A stretch of 64,000 bases of DNA, taken from contig CM022673.1 of NCBI GenBank assembly GCA_012295275.1, forward strand, positions 18,476,001-18,540,000, read 5' to 3'. A model generated the notes under the pieces. That model did not search any database. It saw nothing but the letters and a program-made list of their open reading frames with translations, and was not told where the DNA came from. The first letter of the stretch is position 1. Every line of letters begins with the position of its first letter. Positions 467 to 25,400 of the stretch are shown piece after piece. Both the position numbers and the translations under genes were made by a program. The stretch is from Chrysomallon squamiferum (lineage: Eukaryota; Animalia; Mollusca).

Positions 467-592
467 CTGTCTGACACGTATTTCCGGTGTATTCTGGTGG
501 ACACTGACACGTGAATGTCTGTCCGTCCTTGCTGTTGCTGCACGTGCCAGAGTTCAGGCACGGATGACTGTCACACGGTTTGGTTGGAACCG
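467..592 (-). CDS. Canonical EGF exon (AVPTKPCDSHPCLNSGTCSNSKDGQTFTCQCPPEYTGNTCQT)
   Basis: 126 nt, AAG| acceptor, |GTGCGC donor; the gene continues beyond the window. Confidence 0.85.
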
Positions 593-1081
593 CTTAACAA
601 AAAGTCACGAATAAAGATTTCAGTGAATGCAGTGTTTTCTTTGACAATTTATTCTTGTGAAATTTATATTCTAAATTATTTTTATTCAGTTTGCAGAGAT
701 GAGAAATTATTAAATGAATTTATATCATAAATATTTGAAAAATTAGATATCAGATTTATAATTGTTATATATTTATTATATTTTATTCACTTTTTAAACT
801 TTGTTTACTAATTATTTTTTCTGTCTTTGCTTTTCATTTTACATCTACAATTGTCCATACAAAATACACATATAATTCAAACGAATCCTTCGTGAAATAA
901 ATATACGACGACGACGCTGATGATGATGATAATATATACCTGTATCACATGTATTTCCAGTGTAACGTGGTGGACACAGACATTTGTAGCCTGGTGATGT
1001 TCTTGTTCTTGAACATTTGCCTCCGTTTTGACATGGCTTCTTTTCACACGGGTTCCCGTCTGCAAGGATAAAATTAAAAAT

Positions 1082-1161
<80 letters not shown>

Positions 1162-1385
1162 ATGGATGTGCGTATATATCTATATGAATGTATATATATC
1201 TACATATGTTTGTATATGTTTATATCCATCTCTATATCTTTTGTCTCGACATTTTTAATTATCAGTTAATATAACGAAAACATATACACCCACATGAACG
1301 CCAGATTGTACAGACACACATGCATACCTATATATGTGCATTCGTACATGTATACATACATATATGTATATGTATGCGCACACAT

Positions 1386-1472
<87 letters not shown>

Positions 1473-4400
1473 CTTACAAATATAGTTTTATATGTAAGAA
1501 CATACTTACATACGTACATAAATAAATCAATAGTTTAGAGAAAATGAATAATAATATATATATAATTTTTATATGTAAGGTATGTAAGTACGTAAATTTC
1601 ATTTCAGTTTGTTAATTAAATCAGCAATATAAGTGCAGAAAATGTAAATTATAAATTACCTATATCACAGAATTCTCCTGTGAACTTGTCTTTGCAAATA
1701 CATTTTCCTGTTTCTGAATTACAGTTACCATGGGAACCGCAATTAACTGCTGCACACAAATTAACTGTCAGCTTTGGAGCTGAAAGGTCAAAGATCAATA
1801 TAACAGTTAATTATTGTATTGTATTGTATTTTTATTTATTTTATTTCATTTTATTTTATTTTATTTTATTATATTATATTTTTATATTATTTTGTTTTTT
1901 GTTTTATTATATTCGTTTTATTGTTGTTATTGCTCATTTTGTTGCTATTCAACTTCAGTATGTTATTTCAATTTACTTTGTTGTTAAAAAGTCCGTTCAA
2001 TTGTAATGATTAAAGCTAAGAAATTAAAATAGTTTTAAACAAATTCAAATGAAATAAACGAAAAGGGAGCGCTACAAAAACACAATTTGAAATATATTTT
2101 AATATTTTAATACTGCAGACTTAATTTATTTACAAAACTCACCATTTTGACAGAACATGCCAGTGTAGTTGCTATGACAACTGCAGGTGCCAGTGGAATC
2201 GTCACAGGTTCCAAACTTACCACATTTGTCTTTGGGACATTTCTCTATTTCCTTAGGAGCTGTGATAATTCAAGATTTACCACAAATTAAATATCTACAT
2301 TTTATATTTGTGACAGAAAAAAGGGCATATACATACATACATATATATATGTATATATATACACACATATACACATATATTGAATTTATACTTGTTGTTA
2401 TCTTTGTCACTTGTAACGTAATCAAAAATATTTAAACATTTTTAAAAATTATTTTAGTACAATATGTATAATTAAGTCTGAATGTAACTTTCCAAACACC
2501 TTAAGCACATAAACTTTAAAATCAAATTAACTTACATCTAGTTAAATGTTTACCTGTGTCGCATAATTCTCCAGAATATCTATGTTTACAAACACACTTT
2601 CCAGTTTCAGCATTGCAGTCACCATGGGAACCGCAGAAAATCCCATCACAAGGACCTTTTGCCTCTGAAATTAATGAAACTGAATCATTACTTTTGTTAT
2701 TTTATTTTATTGTATTTTGATTAAACATTTATTTTTATTTTCGACCTTTTTTATTATTTATTTTTATTATTTTTTGTTTGTGTATTTATTTATTTATTAT
2801 TTTAGTTATTTTACGATATAATTAAAGTAATAAACTGATTATAGTGAACTAAAAACAGAGTCTAGCTGCTAAAAGTTTATCTTGTTATCGAAATTGAAAG
2901 GTAATGCATCCCTATCATATTTCTTTTATCATAATAATTTACAACAGCAGAAAATAAAAAAAAAGTTAAATAAAACAAAATAAAATAAAATCGAATATTG
3001 TAACTCATTTTTTTTATTACTTTAAATCCTTAAGAAAAATAAAACCGAAATGATTGAAGAGCATTATGATGTTAACACAATACCTGGGACTTCTGTCAGA
3101 TAGTTTGTTACTTACCTTTATCACACAGATCTCCAGTGTATTTGTCTTTACAAACACATTTTCCAGTCTCTGAGTTACAGACACCATGGAAACCACAACT
3201 GACTCCAGTACATCGATCTGGTTTATGGTCTGTAGCTGAATTAAATTAAATATTTGATGGTGTATTATTATTATTTACTAGTAACATTTATTAACAATAA
3301 ACTAATTATAATAGAAAACTATTATTCAGTTTAATTCATAACACAACCTCAACGAAGAGCAGTTAGTCAGACAGATTGAGAGACAAATTCTTTCAAAACA
3401 TAAACATATAATGAGTACACTATGAAACAAACCATGAAAACAAATAATTCATAAAAATAATATATAAGCACTTCATTTTTCAAAATAAAATTAAATCGTT
3501 TTATTACATATATATATTACTTACAAACAGAGGAATTTCTTTTCATTTGATTGGAAAATTTATCCACCATTTCGGTTCGTCCGGAGTAATGATTTTCAAG
3601 TTCCTTCACTGCGTCTTTGTTGGAAATATTCTGCTGTTTCAAACATTGGCTGGCAGACTCCAACTCAGCAGAAAACGTTTTTTTGAAACTTTTAGACAGC
3701 TCGGCAGCTTGCTCCTGTACAGCCTTCATCACATCTTCGTCAGCCATCTTGTCAAAATGATACTCATCACAGTCAGGCTCCTTCTTCATTTCGCCTGATT
3801 GGCCTTCCTCTGGGAAAATCTTATCCACGTCAGGCACACTCAGTTCAAGGGACATGTTTAACCTTTTGGCGGCACATATCACTTTGGTAACGTTCTTGTT
3901 TTGTAACTTGGAGGATAACATTGAATTGAACTTGGAGAAGCAATTTTTCATTTTTGTTCGGTCACTGTTAGAGATGGTTTTGGTGCTTGCTTTTGTCAGA
4001 TCTGTAGGGAGAAATACAATGAGATATTTTGATATGTGTGAAATAACCAACAGCAGTGTGCCTTTCTTTTCATTATTTTTTTCTTTCTCGTTCTTTAGTA
4101 ATTTTTTTTACAACGCTTTTTTAATCTTTTCTTTTTCTTCCTGGAGCTAGAAGTATCGTTTTTATTTATTATTTTAATTTTTCTTTTTTTTTTACTATTT
4201 TATTTTTTTTGTTTTTGACTCATTTTTTTTTTTGTTTTCATTTTCTGTTTATGTGACAGAGAAATACTGAAAATTGATTATCGGTGACATGTTTTCACTA
4301 CTTCGGTGATTCTGTGCTGTAAGTATTATTTAATAGTGTCACTATCACAACAGCTGTCATTTTTTTTTTATTTCCGTTTATCCCTTTCATACGAACATTT

Positions 4401-7400
4401 CACTGAAATCTACCAACCATTTGAGACCAGTCGTTACTGTTTTCACGCTAGGGTTTTTATCATTCTCGCAACATTAATCTTATCATTTTCTTAGGAATGT
4501 TCTTATCAATTTAAGAATACCAGTTTCACACTAATATATTTACCAGTTTCACACTCATATACTTACCTGTTTCACACAAATGTATTTACCAGATTCATTA
4601 GTGTATTTTTAACAGTTTCACACTAAAGTACTTACCAGTTTCACACTAAAGTACTTACCAGTTTCACACGAATCTCCTCCAAAAGAACCAGTACACTGAC
4701 AATGTCCAGATTTTACGTCACACGTCCCATGAGGACCACAACTTCCAGCAGAACATGAAGGTCGATTTTCTCTGTCTTCTGTGAAAACAACAGATGAATA
4801 ATTGTAGTTTCTATTTAACCTCAAGATTAAAATTGTGACATATTCTTAGCAATTTATATATTTGAATGTTTAATGACCTCCTTTGAATTTAAATCTTGAG
4901 TTAATCTACGTTAATTCTTGTTGTGTCATACCAAAAATACATGACTTTCAAAATTAAAAGTTTGATGGTTTTCCATAAACGCGGATTTATTTTTCATGTT
5001 CTATATTTATTTAAAAGTGATATGTTATGTCATGAACCCGCTACTATTCACGACATGAACACGTTACTTTTCCGATATAATATAATGATATCTTTTAAAT
5101 TATTTGTATTACATACTATATGATGAACAAAATCTTCTATCGAGAAAAATCTATAAGACTTACCGTGAGAACTTTTGTTCACGTGATTGGAAAAAGTTTC
5201 CACCATCTGGGTTCGTCCGGAGTAGTGATTTTGAAGTTCCTTCACTGCGTCTTTGTTGGAAATATTCTGCTGTTTCAAACATTGGCTGGCAGACTCCAAC
5301 TCAGCAGAAAACGTTTTTTGAAACTTTTAGACAGCTCGGCAGCTTGCTCCTGTACAGCCTTCATCACATCTTCGTCAGCCATCTTGTCAAAATGATACTC
5401 ATCACAGTCAGGCTCCTTCTTCATTTCGCCTGATTGGCCTTCCTCTGGGAAAATCTTATCCACGTCAGGCACACTCAGTTCAAGGGACATGTTTAACCTT
5501 TTGGCGGCACATATCACTTTGGTAACGTTCTTGTTTTGTAACTTGGAGGATAACATTGAATTGAACTTGGAGAAGCAATTTTTCATTTTGTTCGGTCACT
5601 GTTAGAGATGGTTTTGGTGCTTGCTTTTTTGTCAGATCTGTAGGGAGAAATACAATGAGATATTTTGATATGTGTGAAATATCCAACAGCAGTGTGCTTT
5701 TCTTTTGTTTCTTTTTCTTTTTATTCTTTACTAATTTTCTTTTACAAGACTTTTTAATCTTTTCATTCTGCTCCTGGAAATAGATGTATCGTTTATTGAT
5801 TACTTAATTTTATTTTTATATTTTATCTTTCATTTTTTTTATTATTATTATTTTTTTTTTTTTTTTTTTTTTTTTTTATTTATTTTATATTTATTTATTT
5901 ATTATTACCTTTTCATTTTTTAATTATTATTATTTTTTTTTTTTTCCTCCTGGAGCTCGATTTATTTATTACCTGATTTTAATTTATTTTACTTTATTTT
6001 ATTTTATTTTATTTTAATTTTTACTGATATATATTTTTAAATTCCTTGTTTAGTGATAGAGGAATAATGAACACTGTCGACCGGTGACGTTTTTTTCTTC
6101 TATTTTTGTGTTTATATAATATAACTAGTACTTAAAACGGTGATAACTAAAGATACCAGTTTTCCACAATTCCATGTGTCCGTTTCATACGAATTTCCAT
6201 AAACATTTCACTCAAATCTACGTAACTTACATCTAAAACCAGTCTCTATGATTTTTACACCAGTGTCATATTAATTTGACACTAATGTAACTATCAGTTT
6301 CAAACTAATGTACTTACCAGTTTCACACGAATCTCCTCCAAAAGAACCAGTACACTGACAATGTCCAGATTTTACGTCACACGTCCCATGAGGACCACAA
6401 CTTCCAGCAGAACATGAAGGTCGATTTTCTCTGTCTTCTGTGAAAACAACAGATGAATAATTGTAGTTTCTATTTAACCTCAAGATTAAAATTGTGACAT
6501 ATTCTTAGCAATTTATATATTTGAATGTTTAATGACCTCCTTTGAATTTAAATCTTGAGTTAATCTACGTTAATTCTTGTTGTGTCATACCAAAAATACA
6601 TGACTTTCAAAATTAAAAGTTTGATGGTTTTCCATAAACGCGGATTTATTTTTCATGTTCTATATTTATTTAAAAAGTGATATGTTATGTCATGAACCCG
6701 CTACTATTCACGACATGAACACGTTACTTTTCCGATATAATATAATGATATCTTTTAAATTATTTGTATTACATACTATATGATGAACAAAATCTTCTAT
6801 CGAGAAAATCTATAAGACTTACCGTGAGAACTTTTGTTCACGTGATTGGAAAAAGTTTCCACCATCTGGGTTCGTCCGGAGTAGTGATTTTGAAGTTCCT
6901 TCACTGCGTCTTTGTTGGAAATATTCTGCTGTTTCAAACATTGGCTGGCAGACTCCAACTCAGCAGAAAACGTTTTTTGAAACTTTTAGACAGCTCGGCA
7001 GCTTGCTCCTGTACAGCCTTCATCACATCTTCGTCAGCCATCTTGTCAAAATGATACTCATCACAGTCAGGCTCCTTCTTCATTTCGCCTGATTGGCCTT
7101 CCTCTGGGAAAATCTTATCCACGTCAGGCACACTCAGTTCAAGGGACATGTTTAACCTTTTGGCGGCACATATCACTTTGGTAACGTTCTTGTTTTGTAA
7201 CTTGGAGGATAACATTGAATTGAACTTGGAGAAGCAATTTTTCATTTTTGTTCGGTCACTGTTAGAGATGGTTTTGGTGCTTGCTTTTGTCAGATCTGTA
7301 GGGAGAAATACAATGAGATATTTTGATATGTGTGAAATAACCAACAGCAGTGTGCCTTTCTTTTCATTATTTTTCTTCTCGTTCTTTAGTAATTTTTTCT

Positions 7401-10400
7401 TACAACGCTTCGTAAGCTTTTTTTTTTTCTTCCTGGAGCTAGAAGTATCTTTTATTTATTATTTTAATTTTATTTTTTTACTATTTTATTTTATTTGTTT
7501 TTGACTCATTCAATTTTTGTTTTCATTTTCTGTTTATGTGACAGAGAAATACTGAAAATTGATTATCGGTGACATGTTTTCACTACTTCGGTGATTCTGT
7601 GCTGTAAGTATTATTTAATAGTGTCACTATCACAACAGCTGTCAGTTTTACACACTTCCGTTTATCCCTTTCATACGAACATTTCACTGAAATCTACCAA
7701 CCATTTGAGACCAGTCGTTACTGTTTTCACGCTAGGTTTTTATCATTCTCGCAACATTAATCTTATCATTTTCTTAGGAATGTTCTTATCAATTTAAGAA
7801 TACCAGTTTCACACTAATATATTTACCAGTTTCACACTCATATACTTACCTGTTTCACACAAATGTATTTACCAGATTCATTAGTGTACTTAACAGTTTC
7901 ACACTAAAGTACTTACCAGTTTCACACTAAAGTACTTACCAGTTTCACACGAATCTCCTCCAAAAGAACCAGTACACTGACAATGTCCAGATTTTACGTC
8001 ACACGTCCCATGAGGACCACAACTTCCAGCAGAACATGAAGGTCGATTTTCTCTGTCTTCTGTGAAAACAACAGATGAATAATTGTAGTTTCTATTTAAC
8101 CTCAAGATTAAAATTGTGACATATTCTTAGCAATTTATATATTTGAATGTTTAATGACCTCCTTTGAATTTAAATCTTGAGTTAATCTACGTTAATTCTT
8201 GTTGTGTCATACCAAAAATACATGACTTTCAAAATTAAAAGTTTGATGGTTTTCCATAAACGCGGATTTATTTTTCATGTTCTATATTTATTTAAAAGTG
8301 ATATGTTATGTCATGAACCCGCTACTATTCACGACATGAACACGTTACTTTTCCGATATAATATAATGATATCTTTTAAATTATTTGTATTACATACTAT
8401 ATGATGAACAAAATCTTCTATCGAGAAAATCTATAAGACTTACCGTGAGAACTTTTGTTCACGTGATTGGAAAAAGTTTCCACCATCTGGGTTCGTCCGG
8501 AGTAGTGATTTTGAAGTTCCTTCACTGCGTCTTTGTTGGAAATATTCTGCTGTTTCAAACATTGGCTGGCAGACTCCAACTCAGCAGAAAACGTTTTTTG
8601 AAACTTTTAGACAGCTCGGCAGCTTGCTCCTGTACAGCCTTCATCACATCTTCGTCAGCCATCTTGTCAAAATGATACTCATCACAGTCAGGCTCCTTCT
8701 TCATTTCGCCTGATTGGCCTTCCTCTGGGAAAATCTTATCCACGTCAGGCACACTCAGTTCAAGGGACATGTTTAACCTTTTGGCGGCACATATCACTTT
8801 GGTAACGTTCTTGTTTTGTAACTTGGAGGATAACATTGAATTGAACTTGGAGAAGCAATTTTTCATTTTTGTTCGGTCACTGTTAGAGATGGTTTTGGTG
8901 CTTGCTTTTTGTCAGATCTGTAGGGAGAAATACAATGAGATATTTTGATATGTGTGAAATAACCAACAGCAGTGTGCCTTTCTTTTCATTATTTTTCTTC
9001 TCGTTCTTTAGTAATTTTTTCTTACAACGCTTCGTAAGCTTTCTTTTTTTCTTCCTGGAGCTAGAAGTATCTTTTATTTATTATTTTAATTTTATTTTTT
9101 TACTATTTTATTTTATTTGTTTTTGACTCATTCAATTTTTGTTTTCATTTTCTGTTTATGTGACAGAGAAATACTGAAAATTGATTATCGGTGACATGTT
9201 TTCACTACTTCGGTGATTCTGTGCTGTAAGTATTATTTAATAGTGTCACTATCACAACAGCTGTCAGTTTTACACACTTCCGTTTATCCCTTTCATACGA
9301 ACATTTCACTGAAATCTACCAACCATTTGAGACCAGTCGTTACTGTTTTCACGCTAGGGTTTTTATCATTCTCGCAACATTAATCTTATCATTTTCTTAG
9401 GAATGTTCTTATCAATTTAAGAATACCAGTTTCACACTAATATATTTACCAGTTTCACACTCATATACTTACCTGTTTCACACAAATGTATTTACCAGAT
9501 TCATTAGTGTACTTAACAGTTTCACACTAAAGTACTTACCAGTTTCACACTAAAGTACTTACCAGTTTCACACGAATCTCCTCCAAAAGAACCAGTACAC
9601 TGACAATGTCCAGATTTTACGTCACACGTCCCATGAGGACCACAACTTCCAGCAGAACATGAAGGTCGATTTTCTCTGTCTTCTGTGAAAACAACAGATG
9701 AATAATTGTAGTTTCTATTTAACCTCAAGATTAAAATTGTGACATATTCTTAGCAATTTATATATTTGAATGTTTAATGACCTCCTTTGAATTTAAATCT
9801 TGAGTTAATCTACGTTAATTCTTGTTGTGTCATACCAAAAATACATGACTTTCAAAATTAAAAGTTTGATGGTTTTCCATAAACGCGGATTTATTTTTCA
9901 TGTTCTATATTTATTTAAAAGTGATATGTTATGTCATGAACCCGCTACTATTCACGACATGAACACGTTACTTTTCCGATATAATATAATGATATCTTTT
10001 AAATTATTTGTATTACATACTATATGATGAACAAAATCTTCTATCGAGAAAATCTATAAGACTTACCGTGAGAACTTTTGTTCACGTGATTGGAAAAAGT
10101 TTCCACCATCTGGGTTCGTCCGGAGTAGTGATTTTGAAGTTCCTTCACTGCGTCTTTGTTGGAAATATTCTGCTGTTTCAAACATTGGCTGGCAGACTCC
10201 AACTCAGCAGAAAACGTTTTTTGAAACTTTTAGACAGCTCGGCAGCTTGCTCCTGTACAGCCTTCATCACATCTTCGTCAGCCATCTTGTCAAAATGATA
10301 CTCATCACAGTCAGGCTCCTTCTTCATTTCGCCTGATTGGCCTTCCTCTGGGAAAATCTTATCCACGTCAGGCACACTCAGTTCAAGGGACATGTTTAAC

Positions 10401-13400: not shown

Positions 13401-16400
13401 TCGTCCGGAGTAGTGATTTTGAAGTTCCTTCACTGCGTCTTTGTTGGAAATATTCTGCTGTTTCAAACATTGGCTGGCAGACTCCAACTCAGCAGAAAAC
13501 GTTTTTTGAAACTTTTAGACAGCTCGGCAGCTTGCTCCTGTACAGCCTTCATCACATCTTCGTCAGCCATCTTGTCAAAATGATACTCATCACAGTCAGG
13601 CTCCTTCTTCATTTCGCCTGATTGGCCTTCCTCTGGGAAAATCTTATCCACGTCAGGCACACTCAGTTCAAGGGACATGTTTAACCTTTTGGCGGCACAT
13701 ATCACTTTGGTAACGTTCTTGTTTTGTAACTTGGAGGATAACATTGAATTGAACTTGGAGAAGCAATTTTTCATTTTGTTCGGTCACTGTTAGAGATGGT
13801 TTTGGTGCTTGCTTTTGTCAGATCTGTAGGGAGAAATACAATGAGATATTTTGATATGTGTGAAATAACCAACAGCAGTGTGCCTTTCTTTTCATTATTT
13901 TTCTTTCTCGTTCTTTAGTAATTTTTTTCTTACAACGCTTCGTAAGCTTTTTTTTTCTTCCTGGAGCTAGAAGTATCTTTTTATTTATTATTTTAATTTT
14001 ATTTTTTTACTATTTTATTTTATTTGTTTTTGACTCATTCAATTTTTGTTTTCATTTTCTGTTTATGTGACAGAGAAATACTGAAAATTGATTATCGGTG
14101 ACATGTTTTCACTACTTCGGTGATTTTGTGCTGTAAGTATTATTTAATAGTGTCACTATCACAACAGCTGTCAGTTTTACACACTTCCGTTTATCCCTTT
14201 CATACGAACATTTCACTGAAATCTACCAACCATTTGAGACCAGTCGTTACTGTTTTCACGCTAGGGTTTTTATCATTCTCGCAACATTAACCTTATAATT
14301 TTCTTAGGAATGTTCTTATCAATTTAAGAATACCAGTTTCACACTAATATATTTACCAGTTTCACACTCATATACTTACCTGTTTCACACAAATGTATTT
14401 ACCAGATTCATTAGTGTACTTAACAGTTTCACACTAAAGTACTTACCAGTTTCACACTAAAGTACTTACCAGTTTCACACGAATCTCCTCCAAAAGAACC
14501 AGTACACTGACAATGTCCAGATTTTACGTCACACGTCCCATGAGGACCACAACTTCCAGCAGAACATGAAGGTCGATTTTCTCTGTCTTCTGTGAAAACA
14601 ACAGATGAATAATTGTAGTTTCTATTTAACCTCAAGATTAAAATTGTGACATATTCTTAGCAATTTATATATTTGAATGTTTAATGACCTCCTTTGAATT
14701 TAAATCTTGAGTTAATCTACGTTAATTCTTGTTGTGTCATACTAAAAATACATGACTTTCAAAATTAAAAGTTTGATGGTTTTCCATAAACGCGGATTTA
14801 TTTTTCATGTTCTATATTTATTTAAAAGTGATATGTTATGTCATGAACCCGCTACTATTCACGACATGAACACGTTACTTTTCCGATATAATATAATGAT
14901 ATCTTTTAAATTATTTGTATTACATACTATATGATGAACAAAATCTTCTATCGAGAAAATCTATAAGACTTACCGTGAGAACTTTTGTTCACGTGATTGG
15001 AAAAAGTTTCCACCATCTGGGTTCGTCCGGAGTAGTGATTTTGAAGTTCCTTCACTGCGTCTTTGTTGGAAATATTCTGCTGTTTCAAACATTGGCTGGC
15101 AGACTCAACTCAGCAGAAAACGTTTTTGAAACTTTTAGACAGCTCGGCAGCTTGCTCCTGTACAGCCTTCATCACATCTTCGTCAGCCATCTTGTCAAAA
15201 TGATACTCATCACAGTCAGGCTCCTTCTTCATTTCGCCTGATTGGCCTTCCTCTGGGAAAATCTTATCCACGTCAGGCACACTCAGTTCAAGGGACATGT
15301 TTAACCTTTTGGCGGCACATATCACTTTGGTAACGTTCTTGTTTTTAACTTGGAGGATAACATTGAATTGAACTTGGAGAAGCAATTTTTCATTTTTGTT
15401 CGGTCACTGTTAGAGATGGTTTTGGTGCTTGCTTTTGTCAGATCTGTAGGGAGAAATACAATGAGATATTTTGATATGTGTGAAATAACCAACAGCAGTG
15501 TGCCTTTCTTTTCATTATTTTTTCTTCTCGTTCTTTAGTAATTTTTTCTTACAACGCTTCGTAAGCTTTTCTTTTTCTTCCTGGAGCTAGAAGTATCTTT
15601 TATTTATTATTTTAATTTTATTTTTTTTACTATTTTATTTTATTTGTTTTTGACTCATTCAATTTTTGTTTTCATTTTCTGTTTATGTGACAGAGAAATA
15701 CTGAAAATTGATTATCGGTGACATGTTTTCACTACTTCGGTGATTTTGTGCTGTAAGTATTATTTAATAGTGTCACTATCACAACAGCTGTCAGTTTTAC
15801 ACACTTCCGTTTATCCCTTTCATACGAACATTTCACTGAAATCTACCAACCATTTGAGACCAGTCGTTACTGTTTTCACGCTAGGGTTTTTATCATTCTC
15901 GCAACATTAACCTTATAATTTTCTTAGGAATGTTCTTATCAATTTAAGAATACCAGTTTCACACTAATATATTTACCAGTTTCACACTCATATACTTACC
16001 TGTTTCACACAAATGTATTTACCAGATTCATTAGTGTACTTAACAGTTTCACACTAAAGTACTTACCAGTTTCACACTAAAGTACTTACCAGTTTCACAC
16101 GAATCTCCTCCAAAAGAACCAGTACACTGACAATGTCCAGATTTTACGTCACACGTCCCATGAGGACCACAACTTCCAGCAGAACATGAAGGTCGATTTT
16201 CTCTGTCTTCTGTGAAAACAACAGATGAATAATTGTAGTTTCTATTTAACCTCAAGATTAAAATTGTGACATATTCTTAGCAATTTATATATTTGAATGT
16301 TTAATGACCTCCTTTGAATTTAAATCTTGAGTTAATCTACGTTAATTCTTGTTGTGTCATACTAAAAATACATGACTTTCAAAATTAAAAGTTTGATGGT

Positions 16401-19400
16401 TTTCCATAAACGCGGATTTATTTTTCATGTTCTATATTTATTTAAAAAAGTGATATGTTATGTCATGAACCCGCTACTATTCACGACATGAACACGTTAC
16501 TTTTCCGATATAATATAATGATATCTTTTAAATTATTTGTATTACATACTATATGATGAACAAAATCTTCTATCGAGAAAATCTATAAGACTTACCGTGA
16601 GAACTTTTGTTCACGTGATTGGAAAAAGTTTCCACCATCTGGGTTCGTCCGGAGTAGTGATTTTGAAGTTCCTTCACTGCGTCTTTGTTGGAAATATTCT
16701 GCTGTTTCAAACATTGGCTGGCAGACTCCAACTCAGCAGAAAACGTTTTTTTGAAACTTTTAGACAGCTCGGCAGCTTGCTCCTGTACAGCCTTCATCAC
16801 ATCTTCGTCAGCCATCTTGTCAAAATGATACTCATCACAGTCAGGCTCCTTCTTCATTTCGCCTGATTGGCCTTCCTCTGGGAAAATCTTATCCACGTCA
16901 GGCACACTCAGTTCAAGGGACATGTTTAACCTTTTGGCGGCACATATCACTTTGGTAACGTTCTTGTTTTGTAACTTGGAGGATAACATTGAATTGAACT
17001 TGGAGAAGCAATTTTTCATTTTTGTTCGGTCACTGTTAGAGATGGTTTTGGTGCTTGCTTTTGTCAGATCTGTAGGGAGAAATATACAATGAGATATTTT
17101 GATATGTGTGAAATAACCAACAGCAGTGTGCCTTTCTTTTCATTATTTTTCTTCTCGTTCTTTAGTAATTTTTTTTTCTTACAACGCTTCGTAAGCTTTT
17201 CTTTTTCTTCCTGGAGCTAGAAGTATCTTTTATTTATTATTTTAATTTTATTTTTTTACTATTTTATTTTATTTGTTTTTGACTCATTCAATTTTTGTTT
17301 TCATTTTCTGTTTATGTGACAGAGAAATACTGAAAATTGATTATGGGTGACATGTTTTCACTACTTCGGTGATTTTGTGCTGTAAGTATTATTTAATAGT
17401 GTCACTATCACAACAGCTGTCAGTTTTACACACTTCCGTTTATCCCTTTCATACGAACATTTCACTGAAATCTACCAACCATTTGAGACCAGTCGTTACT
17501 GTTTTCACGCTAGGGTTTTTATCATTCTCGCAACATTAACCTTATAATTTTCTTAGGAATGTTCTTATCAATTTAAGAATACCAGTTTCACACTAATATA
17601 TTTACCAGTTTCACACTCATATACTTACCTGTTTCACACAAATGTATTTACCAGATTCATTAGTGTACTTAACAGTTTCACACTAAAAGTACTTACCAGT
17701 TTCACACTAAAGTACTTACCAGTTTCACACGAATCTCCTCCAAAAGAACCAGTACACTGACAATGTCCAGATTTTACGTCACACGTCCCATGAGGACCAC
17801 AACTTCCAGCAGAACATGAAGGTCGATTTTCTCTGTCTTCTGTGAAAACAACAGATGAATAATTGTAGTTTCTATTTAACCTCAAGATTAAAATTGTGAC
17901 ATATTCTTAGCAATTTATATATTTGAATGTTTAATGACCTCCTTTGAATTTAAATCTTGAGTTAATCTACGTTAATTCTTGTTGTGTCATACTAAAAATA
18001 CATGACTTTCAAAATTAAAAGTTTGATGGTTTTCCATAAACGCGGATTTATTTTTCATGTTCTATATTTATTTAAAAAGTGATATGTTATGTCATGAACC
18101 CGCTACTATTCACGACATGAACACGTTACTTTTCCGATATAATATAATGATATCTTTTAAATTATTTGTATTACATACTATATGATGAACAAAATCTTCT
18201 ATCGAGAAAATCTATAAGACTTACCGTGAGAACTTTTGTTCACGTGATTGGAAAAAGTTTCCACCATCTGGGTTCGTCCGGAGTAGTGATTTTGAAGTTC
18301 CTTCACTGCGTCTTTGTTGGAAATATTCTGCTGTTTCAAACATTGGCTGGCAGACTCCAACTCAGCAGAAAACGTTTTTTTGAAACTTTTAGACAGCTCG
18401 GCAGCTTGCTCCTGTACAGCCTTCATCACATCTTCGTCAGCCATCTTGTCAAAATGATACTCATCACAGTCAGGCTCCTTCTTCATTTCGCCTGATTGGC
18501 CTTCCTCTGGGAAAATCTTATCCACGTCAGGCACACTCAGTTCAAGGGACATGTTTAACCTTTTGGCGGCACATATCACTTTGGTAACGTTCTTGTTTTG
18601 TAACTTGGAGGATAACATTGAATTGAACTTGGAGAAGCAATTTTTCATTTTGTTCGGTCACTGTTAGAGATGGTTTTGGTGCTTGCTTTTGTCAGATCTG
18701 TAGGGAGAAATACAATGAGATATTTTGATATGTGTGAAATAACCAACAGCAGTGTGCCTTTCTTTTCATTATTTTTCTTCTCGTTCTTTAGTAATTTTTT
18801 CTTACAACGCTTCGTAAGCTTTTCTTTTTCTTCCTGGAGCTAGAAGTATCTTTTATTTATTATTTTAATTTTATTTTTTTACTATTTTATTTTATTTGTT
18901 TTTGACTCATTCAATTTTTGTTTTCATTTTCTGTTTATGTGACAGAGAAATACTGAAAATTGATTATGGGTGACATGTTTTCACTACTTCGGTGATTTTG
19001 TGCTGTAAGTATTATTTAATAGTGTCACTATCACAACAGCTGTCAGTTTTACACACTTCCGTTTATCCCTTTCATACGAACATTTCACTGAAATCTACCA
19101 ACCATTTGAGACCAGTCGTTACTGTTTTCACGCTAGGGTTTTTATCATTCTCGCAACATTAACCTTATAATTTTCTTAGGAATGTTCTTATCAATTTAAG
19201 AATACCAGTTTCACACTAATATATTTACCAGTTTCACACTCATATACTTACCTGTTTCACACAAATGTATTTACCAGATTCATTAGTGTACTTAACAGTT
19301 TCACACTAAAGTACTTACCAGTTTCACACTAAAGTACTTACCAGTTTCACACGAATCTCCTCCAAAAGAACCAGTACACTGACAATGTCCAGATTTTACG

Positions 19401-22400
19401 TCACACGTCCCATGAGGACCACAACTTCCAGCAGAACATGAAGGTCGATTTTCTCTGTCTTCTGTGAAAACAACAGATGAATAATTGTAGTTTCTATTTA
19501 ACCTCAAGATTAAAATTGTGACATATTCTTAGCAATTTATATATTTGAATGTTTAATGACCTCCTTTGAATTTAAATCTTGAGTTAATCTACGTTAATTC
19601 TTGTTGTGTCATACTAAAAATACATGACTTTCAAAATTAAAAGTTTGATGGTTTTCCATAAACGCGGATTTATTTTTCATGTTCTATATTTATTTAAAAA
19701 GTGATATGTTATGTCATGAACCCGCTACTATTCACGACATGAACACGTTACTTTTCCGATATAATATAATGATATCTTTTAAATTATTTGTATTACATAC
19801 TATATGATGAACAAAATCTTCTATCGAGAAAATCTATAAGACTTACCGTGAGAACTTTTGTTCACGTGATTGGAAAAAGTTTCCACCATCTGGGTTCGTC
19901 CGGAGTAGTGATTTTGAAGTTCCTTCACTGCGTCTTTGTTGGAAATATTCTGCTGTTTCAAACATTGGCTGGCAGACTCCAACTCAGCAGAAAACGTTTT
20001 TTTGAAACTTTTAGACAGCTCGGCAGCTTGCTCCTGTACAGCCTTCATCACATCTTCGTCAGCCATCTTGTCAAAATGATACTCATCACAGTCAGGCTCC
20101 TTCTTCATTTCGCCTGATTGGCCTTCCTCTGGGAAAATCTTATCCACGTCAGGCACACTCAGTTCAAGGGACATGTTTAACCTTTTGGCGGCACATATCA
20201 CTTTGGTAACGTTCTTGTTTTGTAACTTGGAGGATAACATTGAATTGAACTTGGAGAAGCAATTTTTCATTTTTGTTCGGTCACTGTTAGAGATGGTTTT
20301 GGTGCTTGCTTTTGTCAGATCTGTAGGGAGAAATACAATGAGATATTTTGATATGTGTGAAATAACCAACAGCAGTGTGCCTTTCTTTTCATTATTTTTC
20401 TTCTCGTTCTTTAGTAATTTTTTTTTCTTACAACGCTTCGTAAGCTTTTCTTTTTCTTCCTGGAGCTAGAAGTATCTTTTATTTATTATTTTAATTTTAT
20501 TTTTTTACTATTTTATTTTATTTGTTTTTGACTCATTCAATTTTTGTTTTCATTTTCTGTTTATGTGACAGAGAAATACTGAAAATTGATTATGGGTGAC
20601 ATGTTTTCACTACTTCGGTGATTTTGTGCTGTAAGTATTATTTAATAGTGTCACTATCACAACAGCTGTCAGTTTTACACACTTCCGTTTATCCCTTTCA
20701 TACGAACATTTCACTGAAATCTACCAACCATTTGAGACCAGTCGTTACTGTTTTCACGCTAGGGTTTTTATCATTCTCGCAACATTAATCTTATAATTTT
20801 CTTAGGAATGTTCTTATCAATTTAAGAATACCAGTTTCACACTAATATATTTACCAGTTTCACACTCATATACTTACCTGTTTCACACAAATGTATTTAC
20901 CAGATTCATTAGTGTACTTAACAGTTTCACACTAAAAAGTACTTACCAGTTTCACACTAAAGTACTTACCAGTTTCACACGAATCTCCTCCAAAAGAACC
21001 AGTACACTGACAATGTCCAGATTTTACGTCACACGTCCCATGAGGACCACAACTTCCAGCAGAACATGAAGGTCGATTTTCTCTGTCTTCTGTGAAAACA
21101 ACAGATGAATAATTGTAGTTTCTATTTAACCTCAAGATTAAAATTGTGACATATTCTTAGCAATTTATATATTTGAATGTTTAATGACCTCCTTTGAATT
21201 TAAATCTTGAGTTAATCTACGTTAATTCTTGTTGTGTCATACTAAAAATACATGACTTTCAAAATTAAAAGTTTGATGGTTTTCCATAAACGCGGATTTA
21301 TTTTTCATGTTCTATATTTATTTAAAAAGTGATATGTTATGTCATGAACCCGCTACTATTCACGACATGAACACGTTACTTTTCCGATATAATATAATGA
21401 TATCTTTTAAATTATTTGTATTACATACTATATGATGAACAAAATCTTCTATCGAGAAAATCTATAAGACTTACCGTGAGAACTTTTGTTCACGTGATTG
21501 GAAAAAGTTTCCACCATCTGGGTTCGTCCGGAGTAGTGATTTTGAAGTTCCTTCACTGCGTCTTTGTTGGAAATATTCTGCTGTTTCAAACATTGGCTGG
21601 CAGACTCCAACTCAGCAGAAAACGTTTTTTTGAAACTTTTAGACAGCTCGGCAGCTTGCTCCTGTACAGCCTTCATCACATCTTCGTCAGCCATCTTGTC
21701 AAAATGATACTCATCACAGTCAGGCTCTTTCTTCATTTCGCCTGATTGGCCTTCCTCTGGGAAAATCTTATCCACGTCAGGCACACTCAGTTCAAGGGAC
21801 ATGTTTAACCTTTTGGCGGCACATATCACTTTGGTAACGTTCTTGTTTTGTAACTTGGAAGATAACATTGAATTGAACTTGGAGAAGCAATTTTTCATTT
21901 TTGTTCGGTCACTGTTAGAGATGGTTTTGGTGCTTGCTTTTGACAGATCTGTAGAGAAAAATAATGAGAGATAATGAAATGTATTTTAACACTACCTACA
22001 GCAGTATGAGTTGGTTTTTAGTGTGGGTTTCTTCTGGTTCCTAGGAATGTTGTCTTACATGAGATTGTAAGCTTTTTTTTTTTCATCCTAGAGCTCGATA
22101 TATCATTTTTTATTGCTTGAATTTTATTTTATTTTATTTTATTTTATTTTATTTTTTATTCATCTTTTTGTTGTCAGTTTTTGTTTGTATGATATTCAAA
22201 TATTGAACACTGTTTTTACTACTTTGGTGTTCATATGCTATAATTATTATTTAATAAACCGGTAATAACTAAAGTTACCAGTTTTACACAATTCCATATG
22301 TCTGTTTCGTACGACAGTTTTCTTATCATTTTGACACTAAAGTACTTACCATTTTCACACGATGTACTTACCAGTTTCACACGAATCTCCTCCAAAAGAA

Positions 22401-25400
22401 CCAGTACACTGACAATGTCCAGATTTTACGTCACACGTCCCATGAGGACCACAACTTCCAGAAGAACATGAAAGTCGATTTTCTTTGTCTTCTGTGAAGA
22501 TGACAAATTATTATTTTTTTATTTTATATCTATCTCTATGACGCAAAATTTAAAATATGCTCAAAGTGAAGTAAGACAAAGTGAAAATGTTAGATATTTT
22601 ACTTCGCTTTCGCCACCCGATGTTCATTTGCTGATCGGCGTGAATGGAGTCTCTATATTAGAAATGAATTCAAAATCAATTTTACAGAATTAAAGTAACT
22701 AAGCTGTATGATATTTAGTATATGAATTTGTGTATGTGTTTGGGAAATAATAAAGTATATGTGTGTGAATTTATGCAAACATGTACCTGAATGGAAGCCG
22801 TTGAAATTGGAATCGAAGACTTTTTGTAACTTGGCATTCTGCAGTTGGTACAGATTGCTGGCAATGTTGACTGCAGCTCTGTTGGAGAAACTGGTGTTTG
22901 ACAGACACGACTGAGCTGCAAGAAAATGTTTCTGTAACTCGGAAACGTTCACGAGTTTGAGGAAATCGTGTGTTAGATTGCGTATCACATCAGTAGAAGG
23001 TTTCCCCTCAAAATTAAATTTACTGCAGTTGTGTTTCGCGGTTTCTGGTGCGGAATCGTTTGAAAACAAATTGTCGAAATCTATAAAACTGATATCGTAG
23101 GAATCCTCCAAAAGTTTGACAGCACATATAAGTTTGAGAGCCTGTTCAGACTGGACGAGCTTTTTCATTTGCTCGTTTACAGATTTTACACACTTCGTCA
23201 TTGCTGCCCGATCTTCTTTGGTGATGTTTATCTTGTTAGCCAAACCTGAAAGGTCATGTATTAAATAATGTTTATTCCTGTGTTGATGATGGTAGGATTG
23301 ATCGTGCATGGTAGTTTCTATTCAGAATTTTTAAAATAAATATGCAAAAACAGTAGCACAACATAAGTATAGCAGATAACCTTAATAATATCAGCTAGTT
23401 TAGTCAAACCGCTAAAATAGTGATCTCATATTTTTCTAGATTTTCTTCATTTTGTAAAGCGTTTAAAATCGTTGTTTTTACATTATATAAATAAATAGAT
23501 AAACAAGAAATGAATAAAGATATGAATGGAATAAAGTGGATGTTTCGAGAAAGGAGATCGTTAATTTTATATTATGCATTCGATTTAGAGGGCACGGAAT
23601 AACAAGCTGCTGTAATTAGTGAAGACTATGAACAGTGACTTTGTAAAATTGATAAATTAATATTTAGATTAAATAGTGGAATGTTTACAATACTGTGCAT
23701 TAAAACTATTTGGTTTGCTTTATAAACAGTAAAGTTTAAAACAAGCAAAGGAAAGATTATCATTTAGTTTCAGTAATATTATGTAAAAGAATATAGAATT
23801 TAGACAACTTTTATGAACTGTCGGATCACCAAAACTGAGAGAGTCATACATGGTTTTGTTTTTCTGGGCTTTTTATTACTTTTTTCAAAAGAACGTTGTT
23901 GTTTTTTTATTTTTTTTTTTTTTGTTCAGTTTTTACAAAGCGGATAAAATAACAAAAAAAAATTTGAATAAACCAGACATGCGTATATCCTAAATAAAAC
24001 TGTTTTACATATTTTTATTTATTCAAAATGGGCAGTGAGTGGGAATATAAAGCTGTATACAATATTATACATCATCGAGTTATAAATTTTGTAGTTGTTA
24101 TAAATCTGAAGCAAAGTCGAGCGTCGTTTATTATTTACAGATTTTCAATAACCTGCTATTACATGTAAACGTCATTCTAATAACTGAGTAAATAGTTTCT
24201 TCCTAAGAACTGGACGTTATGATCACATGTAAAATGTCATCTTCAGAAACTCTTGAGCTTGTTATTGTTTATTAATTGAAAACATTTTCAGATTCCAGGG
24301 ATAATCTGGAACTGTCATAAATTTATATTTTTTTATACGAGACTACATAACATACTGATTCAAAGTGTTGAGGGGTCAATGTATGGGTCTGTGTAGTATA
24401 GACAGTTAATATTTGAATTGATTTGTTTAAAGAAATTATTATAATTATTTTGGAAGGGGACGACGTGTAGTTAATATTTAAGCCCTGAGAATTTCTTTCT
24501 ATTTATTAATGAAATTATTAGAAAGATTGTTAAATCACTCAATCAGCCAAAATGTTTTTTCTAAACTCTGTATCACAACTTACTGTTGCAACATTTTAAA
24601 CGCAACATATGAATGACACGCAAAATACTGTTGTTATTAAAATATCCGAAATTTTCTCTATCTTACAGTTCTAGGCGTACTTTGAGTGGTTATAATTAGA
24701 TTATTTTGGCACATAAGGATAGAAAACTTAAAAAATAAAACTGATGAAAAACGCTACTGATACGCTTACCTGTCATAACCTGTTCCCAAAATTTGCTCTG
24801 TTTCTGTAGTTCATTTTGAATTTTCTGAAATACGTTTTTTGAAATCTCCGGATTTGTGTTAAGTTTTCCAGAAACACAGGATAATGATGACTGGATTCTG
24901 CCATCCAAGACAGCCGTGTATCGCTGATGCATTCGGTGAATAGCTTCTGCTAGCTGTTCCTCTGTCATAGCAGATGACTTCTCTCCGGTACAGTTCAGGT
25001 GTTCTGCGTCCATCCAGCTGTCTGTCTTTGTTCCATTACCAACAATTTTAGAAGATCCAGTTGTTGATGCTGGGTTTGTCCCAGATCCAGTCATTCCTGT
25101 AGATCCGGCGTCAGGTCCAGATCCCAGCTCTGTTGCATTCATCATTTTAGACTTGGTGTCGGCTTGGTTTGATGAAAAGTTTACTGCTGAAAGTTTGGGC
25201 AGTTTAATCTGAATTCTCTCCTTGATCGCACAAAGTGTAGCCTTGTTTTCATTAACCATTTGAGCCAAGTCGTTGTTCAAGTCGTGCATGCAGTCGTCTA
25301 TTGCTGTTCTGTCCACATCAGTTAGTGAGTCGCTTCCGCGGCATGAAGCCACGAAACATGCAGAAATTATTGCAAGACGCCACATTCCGTGGACGTTCAT
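467..25400 (-). CDS. Large secreted modular protein gene (3'-partial, >=32 coding exons): signal peptide + 14 copies of an unrecognised 4-Cys helical domain + >=18 EGF-like domains
   Basis: Hand-spliced: every exon is bounded by AG/GT in phase 1, and intact internal exon lengths are multiples of 3 (459, 120, 474/477, 111-126 nt). Summed length is about 8,920 nt. No stop codon is reached before the window edge. Confidence 0.9.
940..1059 (-). CDS. Canonical EGF exon (DGNPCEKKPCQNGGKCSRTRTSPGYKCLCPPRYTGNTCDT)
   Basis: Within ORF 845..1084; PCxNGGxC motif; AG/GT bounded. Confidence 0.9.
1085..1158. repeat. (CT)n microsatellite
   Basis: Direct observation. Confidence 0.95.
1390..1468. repeat. 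(GA)n microsatellite
   Basis: Direct observation. Confidence 0.95.
1660..1779 (-). CDS. EGF exon (APKLTVNLCAAVNCGSHGNCNSETGKCICKDKFTGEFCDI)
   Basis: 120 nt, phase 1-1, 6 Cys. Confidence 0.9.
2143..2259 (-). CDS. EGF exon (APKEIEKCPKDKCGKFGTCDDSTGTCSCHSNYTGMFCQN)
   Basis: 117 nt, donor |GTGAGT, 6 Cys. Confidence 0.9.
2554..2664 (-). CDS. EGF exon (EAKGPCDGIFCGSHGDCNAETGKCVCKHRYSGELCDT)
   Basis: 111 nt, phase 1-1, 6 Cys. Confidence 0.9.
3116..3235 (-). CDS. EGF exon (STDHKPDRCTGVSCGFHGVCNSETGKCVCKDKYTGDLCDK)
   Basis: 120 nt, TTCAG| and |GTAAGT, 6 Cys; not in the ORF track. Confidence 0.9.
3525..4001 (-). CDS. 4-Cys domain exon A12 (intact, 477 nt, divergent 3' end RTEMVDKFSNQMKRNSSV)
   Basis: Within ORF 3517..4050; donor GTT T|GTAAGT. 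Confidence 0.9.
4518..4669. repeat. 23-bp minisatellite made of the exon end plus splice donor (present in most array units)
   Basis: About 6-7 copies of TACCAGTTTCACACTAAAGTACT-like units next to the EGF exon donor. Confidence 0.9.
4659..4778 (-). CDS. EGF exon E11
   Basis: 120-nt copy of E1. Confidence 0.9.
5164..5637 (-). CDS. 4-Cys domain exon A11 (+2/-1/-1 homopolymer indels)
   Basis: Indels only in T-runs. Confidence 0.8.
6318..6437 (-). CDS. EGF exon E10
   Basis: 120-nt copy of E1; followed by the type B intron. Confidence 0.9.
6823..7295 (-). CDS. 4-Cys domain exon A10 (473 nt)
   Basis: T6 instead of T7 near 6975. Confidence 0.8.
7940..8059 (-). CDS. EGF exon E9
   Basis: 120-nt copy of E1. 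Confidence 0.9.
8444..8917 (-). CDS. 4-Cys domain exon A9 (+1/-1 homopolymer indels)
   Basis: Extra T near 8908, missing T near 8597. Confidence 0.8.
9563..9682 (-). CDS. EGF exon E8
   Basis: 120-nt copy of E1. Confidence 0.9.
10067..10539 (-). CDS. 4-Cys domain exon A8 (473 nt)
   Basis: T6 instead of T7 near 10220. Confidence 0.8.
11236..11355 (-). CDS. EGF exon E7
   Basis: 120-nt copy of E1; followed by the variant (type B) intron. Confidence 0.9.
11730..12203 (-). CDS. 4-Cys domain exon A7 (intact, variant 3' end RTEMVDKFSSHV)
   Basis: Within ORF 11719..12252; donor |GTAACT. Confidence 0.9.
12848..12967 (-). CDS. EGF exon E6
   Basis: 120-nt copy of E1. Confidence 0.9.
13352..13823 (-). 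CDS. 4-Cys domain exon A6 (472 nt; two homopolymer deletions)
   Basis: Same sequence as A2 apart from T-run lengths. Confidence 0.8.
14470..14589 (-). CDS. EGF exon E5
   Basis: 120-nt copy of E1. Confidence 0.9.
14974..15443 (-). CDS. 4-Cys domain exon A5 (470 nt; 4 nt missing)
   Basis: Small deletions in or next to mononucleotide runs (about 15106, 15123, 15345). Confidence 0.75.
16090..16209 (-). CDS. EGF exon E4
   Basis: 120-nt copy of E1. Confidence 0.9.
16596..17069 (-). CDS. 4-Cys domain exon A4 (intact, 474 nt)
   Basis: Open frame with canonical splice sites. Confidence 0.9.
17720..17839 (-). CDS. EGF exon E3
   Basis: 120-nt copy of E1. Confidence 0.9.
18225..18697 (-). CDS. 4-Cys domain exon A3 (473 nt; 1-nt homopolymer deletion)
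   Basis: T-run near 18650 is one base short relative to A1/A2. Confidence 0.8.
19342..19461 (-). CDS. EGF exon E2
   Basis: 120-nt copy of E1. Confidence 0.9.
19847..20320 (-). CDS. 4-Cys domain exon A2 (intact, 474 nt)
   Basis: Within ORF 19821..20369; canonical splice sites. Confidence 0.9.
20970..21089 (-). CDS. EGF exon E1
   Basis: 120 nt EDRENRPSCSAGSCGPHGTCDVKSGHCQCTGSFGGDSCET, AG/GT bounded. Confidence 0.9.
21475..21948 (-). CDS. 4-Cys domain exon A1 (intact, 474 nt)
   Basis: TACAG|AT CTG ... CAC G|GTAAGT; open frame. Confidence 0.9.
22372..22491 (-). CDS. EGF exon E0 (EDKENRLSCSSGSCGPHGTCDVKSGHCQCTGSFGGDSCET)
   Basis: 120 nt, six-Cys EGF spacing, CACAG| and |GTAAGT; slightly diverged edge copy. 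Confidence 0.9.
22787..23245 (-). CDS. Exon 2: second divergent 4-Cys helical domain (459 nt)
   Basis: TTCAG| acceptor and |GTACAT donor; open frame GLANKINITKEDRAAMTKC...LICAVK...NC...SCLS. Confidence 0.9.
24770..25400 (-). CDS. Exon 1: signal peptide (MWRLAIISACFVASCRG) + divergent 4-Cys domain with a Gly/Ser/Thr-rich insert
   Basis: ORF 24696..25400; ATGs at 25400 and 25385; hydrophobic N-terminus; donor ACA G|GTAAGC at 24770/24769. Confidence 0.9.

What the first reader, a model, noticed from the sequence alone, without database searches (positions are those of the whole stretch)
467..25400. Giant secreted beads-on-a-string protein alternating EGF with an unrecognised 4-Cys helical domain
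Seen: splicing by hand gives SP-[X]-[X]-(EGF-X)x12-EGFx>=6, about 2,970 aa and still open at the window edge. X (~155 aa) is rich in K/E/Q/A/L/M with a fixed four-Cys frame. Knowledge: I cannot match X to a family (saposins have 6 Cys; ZP-N, vWA, SEA and CUB are beta-containing), and I do not know this architecture. Inference: an extracellular multivalent matrix, mucus/adhesive, egg-coat or recognition protein built on a possibly undescribed domain.
Basis: partly seen in the sequence, partly recalled or inferred. Interest (0 to 1): 0.85.

Follow-up and report, generated by a model that had tools for sequence, protein, structure and literature searches.

The report
Giant secreted protein, undescribed helical domain
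This animal gene has 32 exons that would splice into a likely secreted protein of about 3,000 amino acids, in which a common EGF module alternates twelve times with a four-cysteine module that is predicted to be all-helical and matched no described family in our searches; it likely forms a long, flexible rod in a mucus, coat or matrix.

Summary
The minus strand carries 32 exons, all with canonical splice sites: signal peptide-X1, X2, (EGF-X)x12 and six more EGF exons. That is about 2,978 codons, still open at the window edge.

14 of 15 indel bases lie at homopolymer runs, and short-read contigs show an intact exon, so these are probably assembly errors.

X is a real family. Four unnamed relatives were found (E 4.5e-8 to 5.5e-4), one in another near-identical multi-copy set. 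It is predicted to be a helical bundle (pLDDT 83). Pfam, PDB, the ESM Atlas and ten literature searches gave no match; AlphaFold DB and HHpred were unavailable.

Best reading (0.45): a secreted structural glycoprotein in which X is a disulfide-pinned spacer, its array homogenised and probably variable in length. VERL-like recognition and a membrane-anchored stalk remain open. Splicing, tissue and C-terminus are untested. The scan noted a similar array, with another module, in a clam; X itself was not noted before.

The parts
24770..25400 (-). Exon 1: ATG, signal-peptide-like segment, divergent X1 with a Gly/Ser/Thr-rich insert between Cys2 and Cys3
   Evidence: kinship of X1 to X is weak by score
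22787..23245 (-). Exon 2: X2, 24-27% identical to X3, six N-glycosylation sequons
22372..22491 (-). EGF exon 1 (3 nt differ from the other 11 array EGF exons)
21475..21948 (-). X3 exon, open
20970..21089 (-). EGF exon 2
19847..20320 (-). X4 exon, open; short-read contigs lie on it without indels
19342..19461 (-). EGF exon 3
18225..18697 (-). X5 exon, frameshifted as assembled
17720..17839 (-). EGF exon 4
16596..17069 (-). X6 exon, open
16090..16209 (-). EGF exon 5
14974..15443 (-). X7 exon, frameshifted as assembled
14470..14589 (-). EGF exon 6
13352..13823 (-). X8 exon, frameshifted as assembled
12848..12967 (-). EGF exon 7
11730..12203 (-). X9 exon, open, variant last helix (4 non-synonymous, 0 synonymous codons vs X4)
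11236..11355 (-). EGF exon 8
10067..10539 (-). X10 exon, frameshifted as assembled
9563..9682 (-). EGF exon 9
8444..8917 (-). X11 exon, frameshifted internally as assembled (+1, -1)
7940..8059 (-). EGF exon 10
6823..7295 (-). X12 exon, frameshifted as assembled
6318..6437 (-). EGF exon 11
5164..5637 (-). X13 exon, frameshifted internally as assembled (+2, -1, -1)
4659..4778 (-). EGF exon 12
3525..4001 (-). X14 exon, open, variant C-terminal end (93-95% identical to X3, X4, X9)
3116..3235 (-). single EGF exon 13
2554..2664 (-). single EGF exon 14
2143..2259 (-). single EGF exon 15 (Pfam EGF_2, 27.8 bits, above cut-off)
1660..1779 (-). single EGF exon 16
940..1059 (-). single EGF exon 17 (Pfam EGF, 33.3 bits, above cut-off)
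467..592 (-). single EGF exon 18 (Pfam EGF, 36.2 bits); a donor follows and the gene runs off the window

Best explanation
The gene holds a tandem array of twelve two-exon units and likely encodes a secreted structural glycoprotein of about 3,000 or more residues, in which EGF modules alternate with a predicted disulfide-pinned helical bundle (X) to form what would be a long, flexible rod in a mucus, coat or matrix. Shown: the exon layout, the four-Cys frame, the homogenised array and unnamed relatives of X. Predicted: X folds into four helices. Inferred: helices 1, 3 and 4 run up-down-up, so the chain enters and leaves at opposite ends; the disulfides are Cys1-Cys4 and Cys2-Cys3; the identical, highly charged X3-X14 units act as a spacer that can stretch by helix unravelling, limited by those disulfides. 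Also inferred: the divergent tip (X1, X2) and the unseen C-terminus make the specific contacts, and unequal crossing-over between the ~1.6-kb units sets the rod's length.
For: A signal-peptide-like start and 18 EGF-type exons with six Cys each. Sequons occur in X1, X2, X3 and X14, one position shared with two foreign clusters (column 56); 14 of 18 EGFs carry the O-fucose consensus (consensus recalled). AF2 gives four helices for X3 (pLDDT 83.3) and a like pattern for X2 (72.6). The best fold alignments span the model end to end against spectrin (Z 6.8, rmsd 3.6, 95 aligned) and ferritin-like bundles (Z 7.0, rmsd 3.8, 114 aligned); both would place the termini at opposite ends (topologies recalled). 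X3 is hydrophilic (GRAVY -0.83, 46 of 157 residues charged). Array exons are near-identical while two introns differ by 28% and one by 13%, which points to constraint on the exons. Tandem EGFs are common in marine adhesive and mucus proteins (PMC9382459, PMC7333891, passages). Native spectrin repeats unfold at about 56 pN (PMC13046381, passages).
Against: No expression, tissue or C-terminal data. Fold matches are at background level for helical bundles (best Z 7.5 and 7.1), and model coordinates could not be read, so topology and disulfides are inferred. Mature X and EGF modules have even Cys counts, and no vWD, C8 or cystine-knot module lies in the window, so nothing seen would cross-link a gel. 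0 of 18 EGFs carry the calcium-binding consensus, unlike the sea-star Sfp3/4 EGFs. The layout of two divergent units and then a homogenised array fits a recognition protein equally well. Exons identical even at silent sites may reflect gene conversion rather than selection.
Confidence: 0.45

Rival explanations
1. A gamete-recognition or egg-coat protein that works like abalone VERL: the two divergent N-terminal X units give species specificity, and the homogenised array gives avidity or bulk.
For: The layout is the same as in VERL, whose repeats 1 and 2 diverged from each other and from repeats 3-22, which are homogenised above 95%, with ~453-bp units and array-length polymorphism (PMC2704960, passages). 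Here X1 and X2 are 13% and 27% identical to X3, and X3, X4, X9 and X14 are 93-99% identical. X9 and X14 differ from X4 mostly at non-synonymous codons (4:0 and 6:1).
Against: VERL repeats are beta-sandwich ZP-N domains (recalled) without intervening introns; X is predicted helical and one exon per module. End units escape homogenisation in any array, so the layout is not specific. The counts of substitutions are too small to show positive selection, and 3 of 4 variants seen in exons 1-2 among four runs are synonymous.
Confidence: 0.2
2. A membrane-anchored surface protein: the EGF run leads to a transmembrane or GPI anchor beyond the window, and the EGF-X array is a stalk that holds X1/X2 away from the cell to bind microbes, symbionts or other cells.
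For: The gene is still open after six tandem EGF exons; the last two have the spacing of canonical EGF and pass Pfam's cut-off. Multi-EGF membrane receptors are implicated in snail-parasite interaction (PMC13712769, passages).
Against: No anchor is visible in the window. The receptors in that paper carry Tie2-like and lectin signatures, not X. The arrays of X elsewhere were seen only as single-exon products, without context.
Confidence: 0.2
3. A polyprotein that is cut into repeated helical units, each binding a lipid or small ligand, as nematode polyprotein allergens do (recalled).
For: Near-identical amphipathic helical repeats (hydrophobic moments at 100 degrees 0.20-0.67 for X3); an R-x-x-R motif opens 11 of 12 array EGF exons.
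Against: That motif is followed by Pro, which disfavours furin cleavage (recalled), and the first unit has Lys in place of the first Arg. An EGF between all units is not expected in such polyproteins. No lipid-binding fold stood out, where an absence is inconclusive.
Confidence: 0.1
4. A decaying gene or a satellite-like amplification: the array is real but most X exons are broken, so no long protein is made.
For: 7 of 12 array X exons are frameshifted as assembled, one deletion recurring in 6 of the 11 exons compared.
Against: 14 of 15 indel bases lie in or next to runs of 4 or more bases, which make up 13% of the exon. Contigs of 4 of 4 runs laid on the open X4 exon list no indel inside it; in run X6 one gap-free contig covers all indel sites at 12.7 times single-copy depth. 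No EGF exon is broken (12 of 12). Contigs can drop rare variants, 110 records were not shown, and the runs need not be the assembled individual.
Confidence: 0.05

Closest known systems
Abalone VERL (vitelline envelope receptor for lysin)
   Same: About 150-aa repeats; first two repeats divergent, the rest homogenised by unequal crossing-over or conversion; array length varies (PMC2704960, passages).
   Different: VERL repeats are ZP-N beta-sandwiches (recalled) with no introns between them and no EGF spacers; X is predicted helical, and each module is its own exon.
Human LPA kringle IV type 2 VNTR
   Same: A coding tandem array whose unit has two exons plus two introns and varies in copy number (5.6 kb, 1-40 units; PMC11462820, passages).
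   Different: Here the two exons encode two different domains (EGF and X) in a 1.6-kb unit; no sequence kinship; copy-number variation is only hinted at by contig depth.
EGF-rich marine adhesive and mucus proteins (sea star Sfp3/Sfp4, limpet P-vulgata_1/2/13, flatworm Mlig-ap1)
   Same: Large secreted proteins with tandem EGFs (PMC9382459, PMC7333891, passages).
   Different: Those carry vWD, C8, lectin, Kazal or calcium-binding EGF modules; none is seen in the window, and the passages read name no alternating helical four-Cys module. Their sequences were not compared with X.
Aciniform spidroin AcSp1
   Same: A huge secreted structural protein of repeats over 99% identical within the gene (PMC3563967, passages).
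   Different: One giant exon, no EGF; its repeats were not compared with X by sequence, and no spidroin is among the 50 rows shown.
Drosophila Dumpy (recalled)
   Same: A giant matrix protein in which EGFs alternate with a four-Cys module.
   Different: The DPY module has about 21 residues (recalled); X has 152-157 and is predicted helical.
Spectrin repeat and ferritin-like helical bundles
   Same: The best structural alignments of the X models (Z 6-7.5).
   Different: Intracellular, no disulfides, identity of 2-13% in the rows shown, Z at background level: a common arrangement, not shown kinship.

Membership tests
EGF-like domain | Six Cys with EGF spacing | tested here: met
   18 of 18 exons have six Cys, spacing 4-5-6-1-8 (16) or 4-5-10-1-8 (2)
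EGF-like domain | Pfam EGF/EGF_2 at the curated cut-off | tested here: inconclusive
   3 of 4 EGF exons scanned pass; array EGF exon 1 scores 16.2 bits against 22.1 (E 0.014); 14 of 18 were not scanned
Calcium-binding EGF | D/N-x-D/N-E/Q before Cys1 (consensus recalled) | tested here: not met
   0 of 18
Saposin-like domain | Six Cys in about 80 residues (recalled) | tested here: not met
   X has four Cys in 152-157 residues
Saposin-like domain | Saposin fold | tested here: inconclusive
   Not among the 50 rows shown; an absence does not exclude it
ZP-N / VERL | Beta-sandwich repeat (recalled) | tested here: not met
   Both models show helices and no strands; this is a prediction
ZP-N / VERL | Two divergent repeats followed by a homogenised array | tested here: met
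   VERL pattern from PMC2704960
ZP-N / VERL | Repeats not separated by introns | tested here: not met
   Each module is its own exon
ZP-N / VERL | C-terminal ZP module and ovary expression | not testable with these tools
   The gene leaves the window and no genome is held
SEA/EGF membrane mucins | SEA domain (alpha/beta) and long Pro/Thr/Ser tracts | tested here: not met
   No SEA hit at E up to 1; models all-helical; only the X1 insert is Ser/Thr/Gly-rich
Dumpy | Short DPY module between EGFs (recalled, about 21 aa) | tested here: not met
   X exons encode about 157 residues
vWD/C8 cohesive proteins (Sfp1 type) | vWD, C8, TIL modules | not testable with these tools
   None among the 32 exons; the C-terminus lies outside the window
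Spectrin repeat / ferritin-like | Fold match well above background | tested here: inconclusive
   Z 6.8 (rmsd 3.6, 95 aligned) and Z 7.0 (rmsd 3.8, 114 aligned); no chain of 48,161 reached Z 8

The most novel reading that the evidence does not exclude
X founds an undescribed family of exon-shuffled extracellular modules: a disulfide-pinned, spectrin-like helical bundle. Several animals have amplified it into homogenised, length-polymorphic arrays, and it gives secreted matrices an extensible helical spring, a job known so far mainly from intracellular spectrins.
Probability: 0.3. Interest if true: 0.72.

Novelty: new variant of a known kind. Interest (0 to 1): 0.52.

Why it matters
Mobile extracellular modules encoded by one phase 1-1 exon are mostly beta-rich or small Cys knots (established knowledge, recalled). 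A 155-residue helical one with relatives in other animals would be a new building block to catalogue. It is small enough to express, solve and pull by force spectroscopy. If array length differs among individuals, as contig depth hints, the gene is a natural experiment on how chain length affects a secretion or a recognition surface. It also shows that assembly errors can hide such genes: 7 of 12 X exons look broken in this assembly.

Tried and rejected
Whole genome: none is held, so the C-terminus and paralogues could not be read.

Sequencing runs: 9 of 11 listed runs hold the stretch; no RNA holder is listed, which says nothing about expression. No read data were obtained for the broken copies or the 3' exons themselves (one search gave no result); the frameshift argument rests alone.

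Pfam: X1, X2, X3, X14 and the 8 members of alignment A2 gave only scattered sub-threshold hits, best E 0.024. PDB by sequence: best E 0.83 and 0.13. Foldseek PDB and BFVD: 0 matches at E up to 0.001; the globin rows have TM about 0.2 and were rejected. VIA: 0 chains at Z 8 or more. ESM Atlas: no usable hit for X3, best 0.87 for P0018; it covers only large clusters.

Word-index protein searches: 0 hits among 7,990 candidates of 329-2,000 residues, twice. The 'near' search returned only P0001 and P0002 and missed P0003 and P0004, so its sensitivity is low, and proteins over 2,000 residues were out of reach. Metagenome contigs: 150 and 351 pattern matches, 0 confirmed, so it is untested whether foreign X exons lie beside EGF exons.

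X-X self-association: no verdict, the prediction queue was full.

Literature: ten searches found no paper on this protein or on such a domain; the peptide search found 0 papers. Most subscription papers are not in the library, and no supplements were read, where proteome tables could list it.

The tree of X sequences is dominated by long branches and was not used for ancestry. The motif test for X1 (1 of 200,000 shuffles) used a motif chosen after seeing X1, so it is biased. Rfam and tRNA scans were empty apart from one sub-threshold microsatellite match. I did not determine the organism: an animal by gene structure; a mollusc or other marine invertebrate is a guess.
Full report
Observation. 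The window is AT-rich animal DNA (GC about 0.25-0.44). A six-frame scan found 18 EGF-like frames on the minus strand between 456 and 22468. Exon mapping gave an ATG at 25400, exon 1 (24770-25400), exon 2 (22787-23245), twelve 120-nt EGF exons alternating with twelve X exons, and six single EGF exons down to 467. All 32 exons have canonical GT/AG ends in a phase 1-1 model. The nominal sum is 8,935 nt, or 2,978 codons, with a donor after the last exon. At the local stop frequency of 0.067, the open frames of exon 1, exon 2 and an X exon have chances of 4e-7, 2.5e-5 and 1.8e-5. Several acceptors have in-frame alternatives, and no transcript was seen, so the junctions are a model.

Only 5 of 12 array X exons are open as assembled. 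Against the open X4 exon, the 11 exons compared (X14 left out) show 15 indel bases in 7 exons; 14 of the 15 lie in or next to runs of four or more bases, which cover 13% of the exon. One deletion in a run of seven A recurs in 6 exons. Contigs from four public runs laid on 19900-25600 list no indel within X4. In run X6 a single gap-free contig (19917-20349) spans every indel site at depth 917, against 68-76 for the single-copy part. If half the copies really lacked that base, a second form would be expected. Assembly error is thus the likely cause. Contigs can drop variants, 110 records were not shown, and these runs may not be the assembled individual.

The array. The same data show that the array is real and hint that its length varies. 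Depth of X-exon contigs over single-copy contigs is about 12.7 (X6), 8.1 (X7), 6.3 (X1) and 2.0 (X4). The tool warns that such depth is not a copy number, so this is a lead only. Seven of 11 full DNA units differ from each other by at most 0.4%. Two units carry another intron type, 28% different, and one intron differs by 13%. Yet 11 of 12 EGF exons are identical and the X exons beside the 28%-different introns carry no substitution. This points to constraint on the exons, or to conversion focused on them. X9 and X14 differ from X4 in the last helix, by 4:0 and 6:1 non-synonymous to synonymous codons; the numbers are too small for a test.

The X domain. A phmmer search with X2 over 1.84 billion representatives returned four unnamed proteins (E 4.5e-8 to 5.5e-4, 27-30% identity). 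A profile built from the foreign sequences alone scores X3 at 144.5 bits, against at most 9.0 for the 299 of 300 shuffles that scored; X3 was not the query that found them. Cys2, Cys3 and Cys4 are invariant in 10 of 10 rows, and Cys1 in the 8 of 10 rows that reach it. One cluster has 14 members, 93-100% identical over 128 residues, which list only three contig lengths. I infer another homogenised array, five copies within 10.5 kb. Their ends read like microsatellite intron sequence, so X seems to be one exon there too. Their neighbours could not be read. X1 is the weak member: 7.2 bits against a shuffle maximum of 5.9 (279 of 300 scored), hhalign probability 1.6%, and E 0.0039 within the window. 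Its four Cys do align, around a Gly/Ser/Thr insert of about 50 residues.

Structure. AF2 models X3 as helices 11-32, 35-46, 87-122 and 128-156 with a long loop (pLDDT 83.3, pTM 0.73), and X2 alike (72.6, 0.62). Foldseek found nothing at E up to 0.001. VIA-align found no chain at Z 8 among 48,161; the best rows are spectrin, BAG, ferritin/Dps and other generic bundles at Z 6-7.5. That is background for helical bundles and shows neither kinship nor a new fold. The spectrin and ferritin alignments both cover the model end to end. From their known topologies (recalled), helices 1, 3 and 4 would run up-down-up, with termini at opposite ends and Cys1 near Cys4. I could not read coordinates, so this is inference. 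Pfam, PDB sequences and the ESM Atlas gave no family.

Mechanism. The best reading (0.45) is a secreted structural glycoprotein. The protein has a signal-peptide-like start, four sequons in X3 and six in X2, and the O-fucose consensus in 14 of 18 EGFs (consensus recalled). X3 is hydrophilic and repeated almost unchanged, as a spacer would be. Helical bundles unfold at low force (native spectrin 56 pN; PMC13046381, passages), and a helix 1-helix 3 disulfide would limit that extension. Tandem EGFs are common in marine adhesive and mucus proteins (PMC9382459 and PMC7333891, passages). Against this: no free Cys, no vWD or knot module and no calcium-binding EGF consensus are seen, and nothing is known of tissue. 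The rivals are a VERL-like recognition protein (0.2), a membrane-anchored stalk (0.2), a cleaved polyprotein (0.1) and a decaying gene (0.05). VERL has the same pattern of two divergent repeats and a homogenised array (PMC2704960, passages), but end units escape homogenisation in any array.

Comparison and novelty. As a kind, this is known: giant secreted proteins with homogenised repeats (VERL; AcSp1, PMC3563967, passages), two-exon coding VNTRs (LPA KIV-2, PMC11462820, passages), and EGF alternating with a partner module (Dumpy, recalled). X fails the tests for saposin (Cys count), ZP-N and SEA (predicted strands) and DPY (size). Ten literature searches found no description; for all papers cited I saw the search listing and keyword passages only, no supplements. 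The scan's own notes hold nothing like X and one analogous alternating array with another module in a clam (unchecked). AlphaFold DB, InterPro, HHpred and proteins over 2,000 residues could not be searched, so 'undescribed' means undescribed in the libraries at hand.

Verdict. A real gene and a real, apparently uncatalogued helical extracellular module with relatives in other animals, set in a familiar type of protein. New variant of a known kind; interest 0.52.

Noticed in passing
window 43446-46382, minus strand: Fragmented LTR-retrotransposon pol: RVT_1 (E 3.5e-33) and RT_RNaseH_2 at 45567-46382, integrase domains at 44251-44769; RT-RNase H-integrase order as in Gypsy elements (recalled).
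   Followed up: partly
window 53317-53664, minus strand: Intronless ORF with one RRM (E 2.6e-14); it resembles transformer-2 to me (recalled, untested), perhaps a processed pseudogene.
   Followed up: partly
window 40764-42229, minus strand: ORF fragments that look like the RNase H end of a LINE-type element (recalled); the one ORF scanned has no Pfam hit.
   Followed up: partly
window about 39.1-40.3 kb, 50.4-52.6 kb and 62.4-63.6 kb: A dispersed repeat in three or more copies, 69-89% identical in pieces of 170-680 nt, with an internal 84-nt tandem at 62989-63175; not identified.
   Followed up: partly
window 20829-20984 and the same place in most units: A 23-nt minisatellite of about 6.8 copies starts at the EGF exon's donor and repeats donor-like sites into the intron; using them would shift the frame, so they could matter for splicing.
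   Followed up: no
window 35700-36520, minus strand: A stretch with less biased composition and an open frame of 108 codons (35822-36148); no Pfam hit; possibly an exon of another gene or a decayed one.
   Followed up: partly
window 19900-25600 (runs X1, X4, X6, X7): Repeat-to-unique contig depth ranges from about 2 to 13 among four runs, a hint of strong array-length polymorphism; depth of contigs is not a copy number.
   Followed up: partly
proteins P0003, P0005-P0017: Fourteen near-identical X relatives from what seem to be three contigs of another animal: a second homogenised X array whose context could not be fetched.
   Followed up: partly
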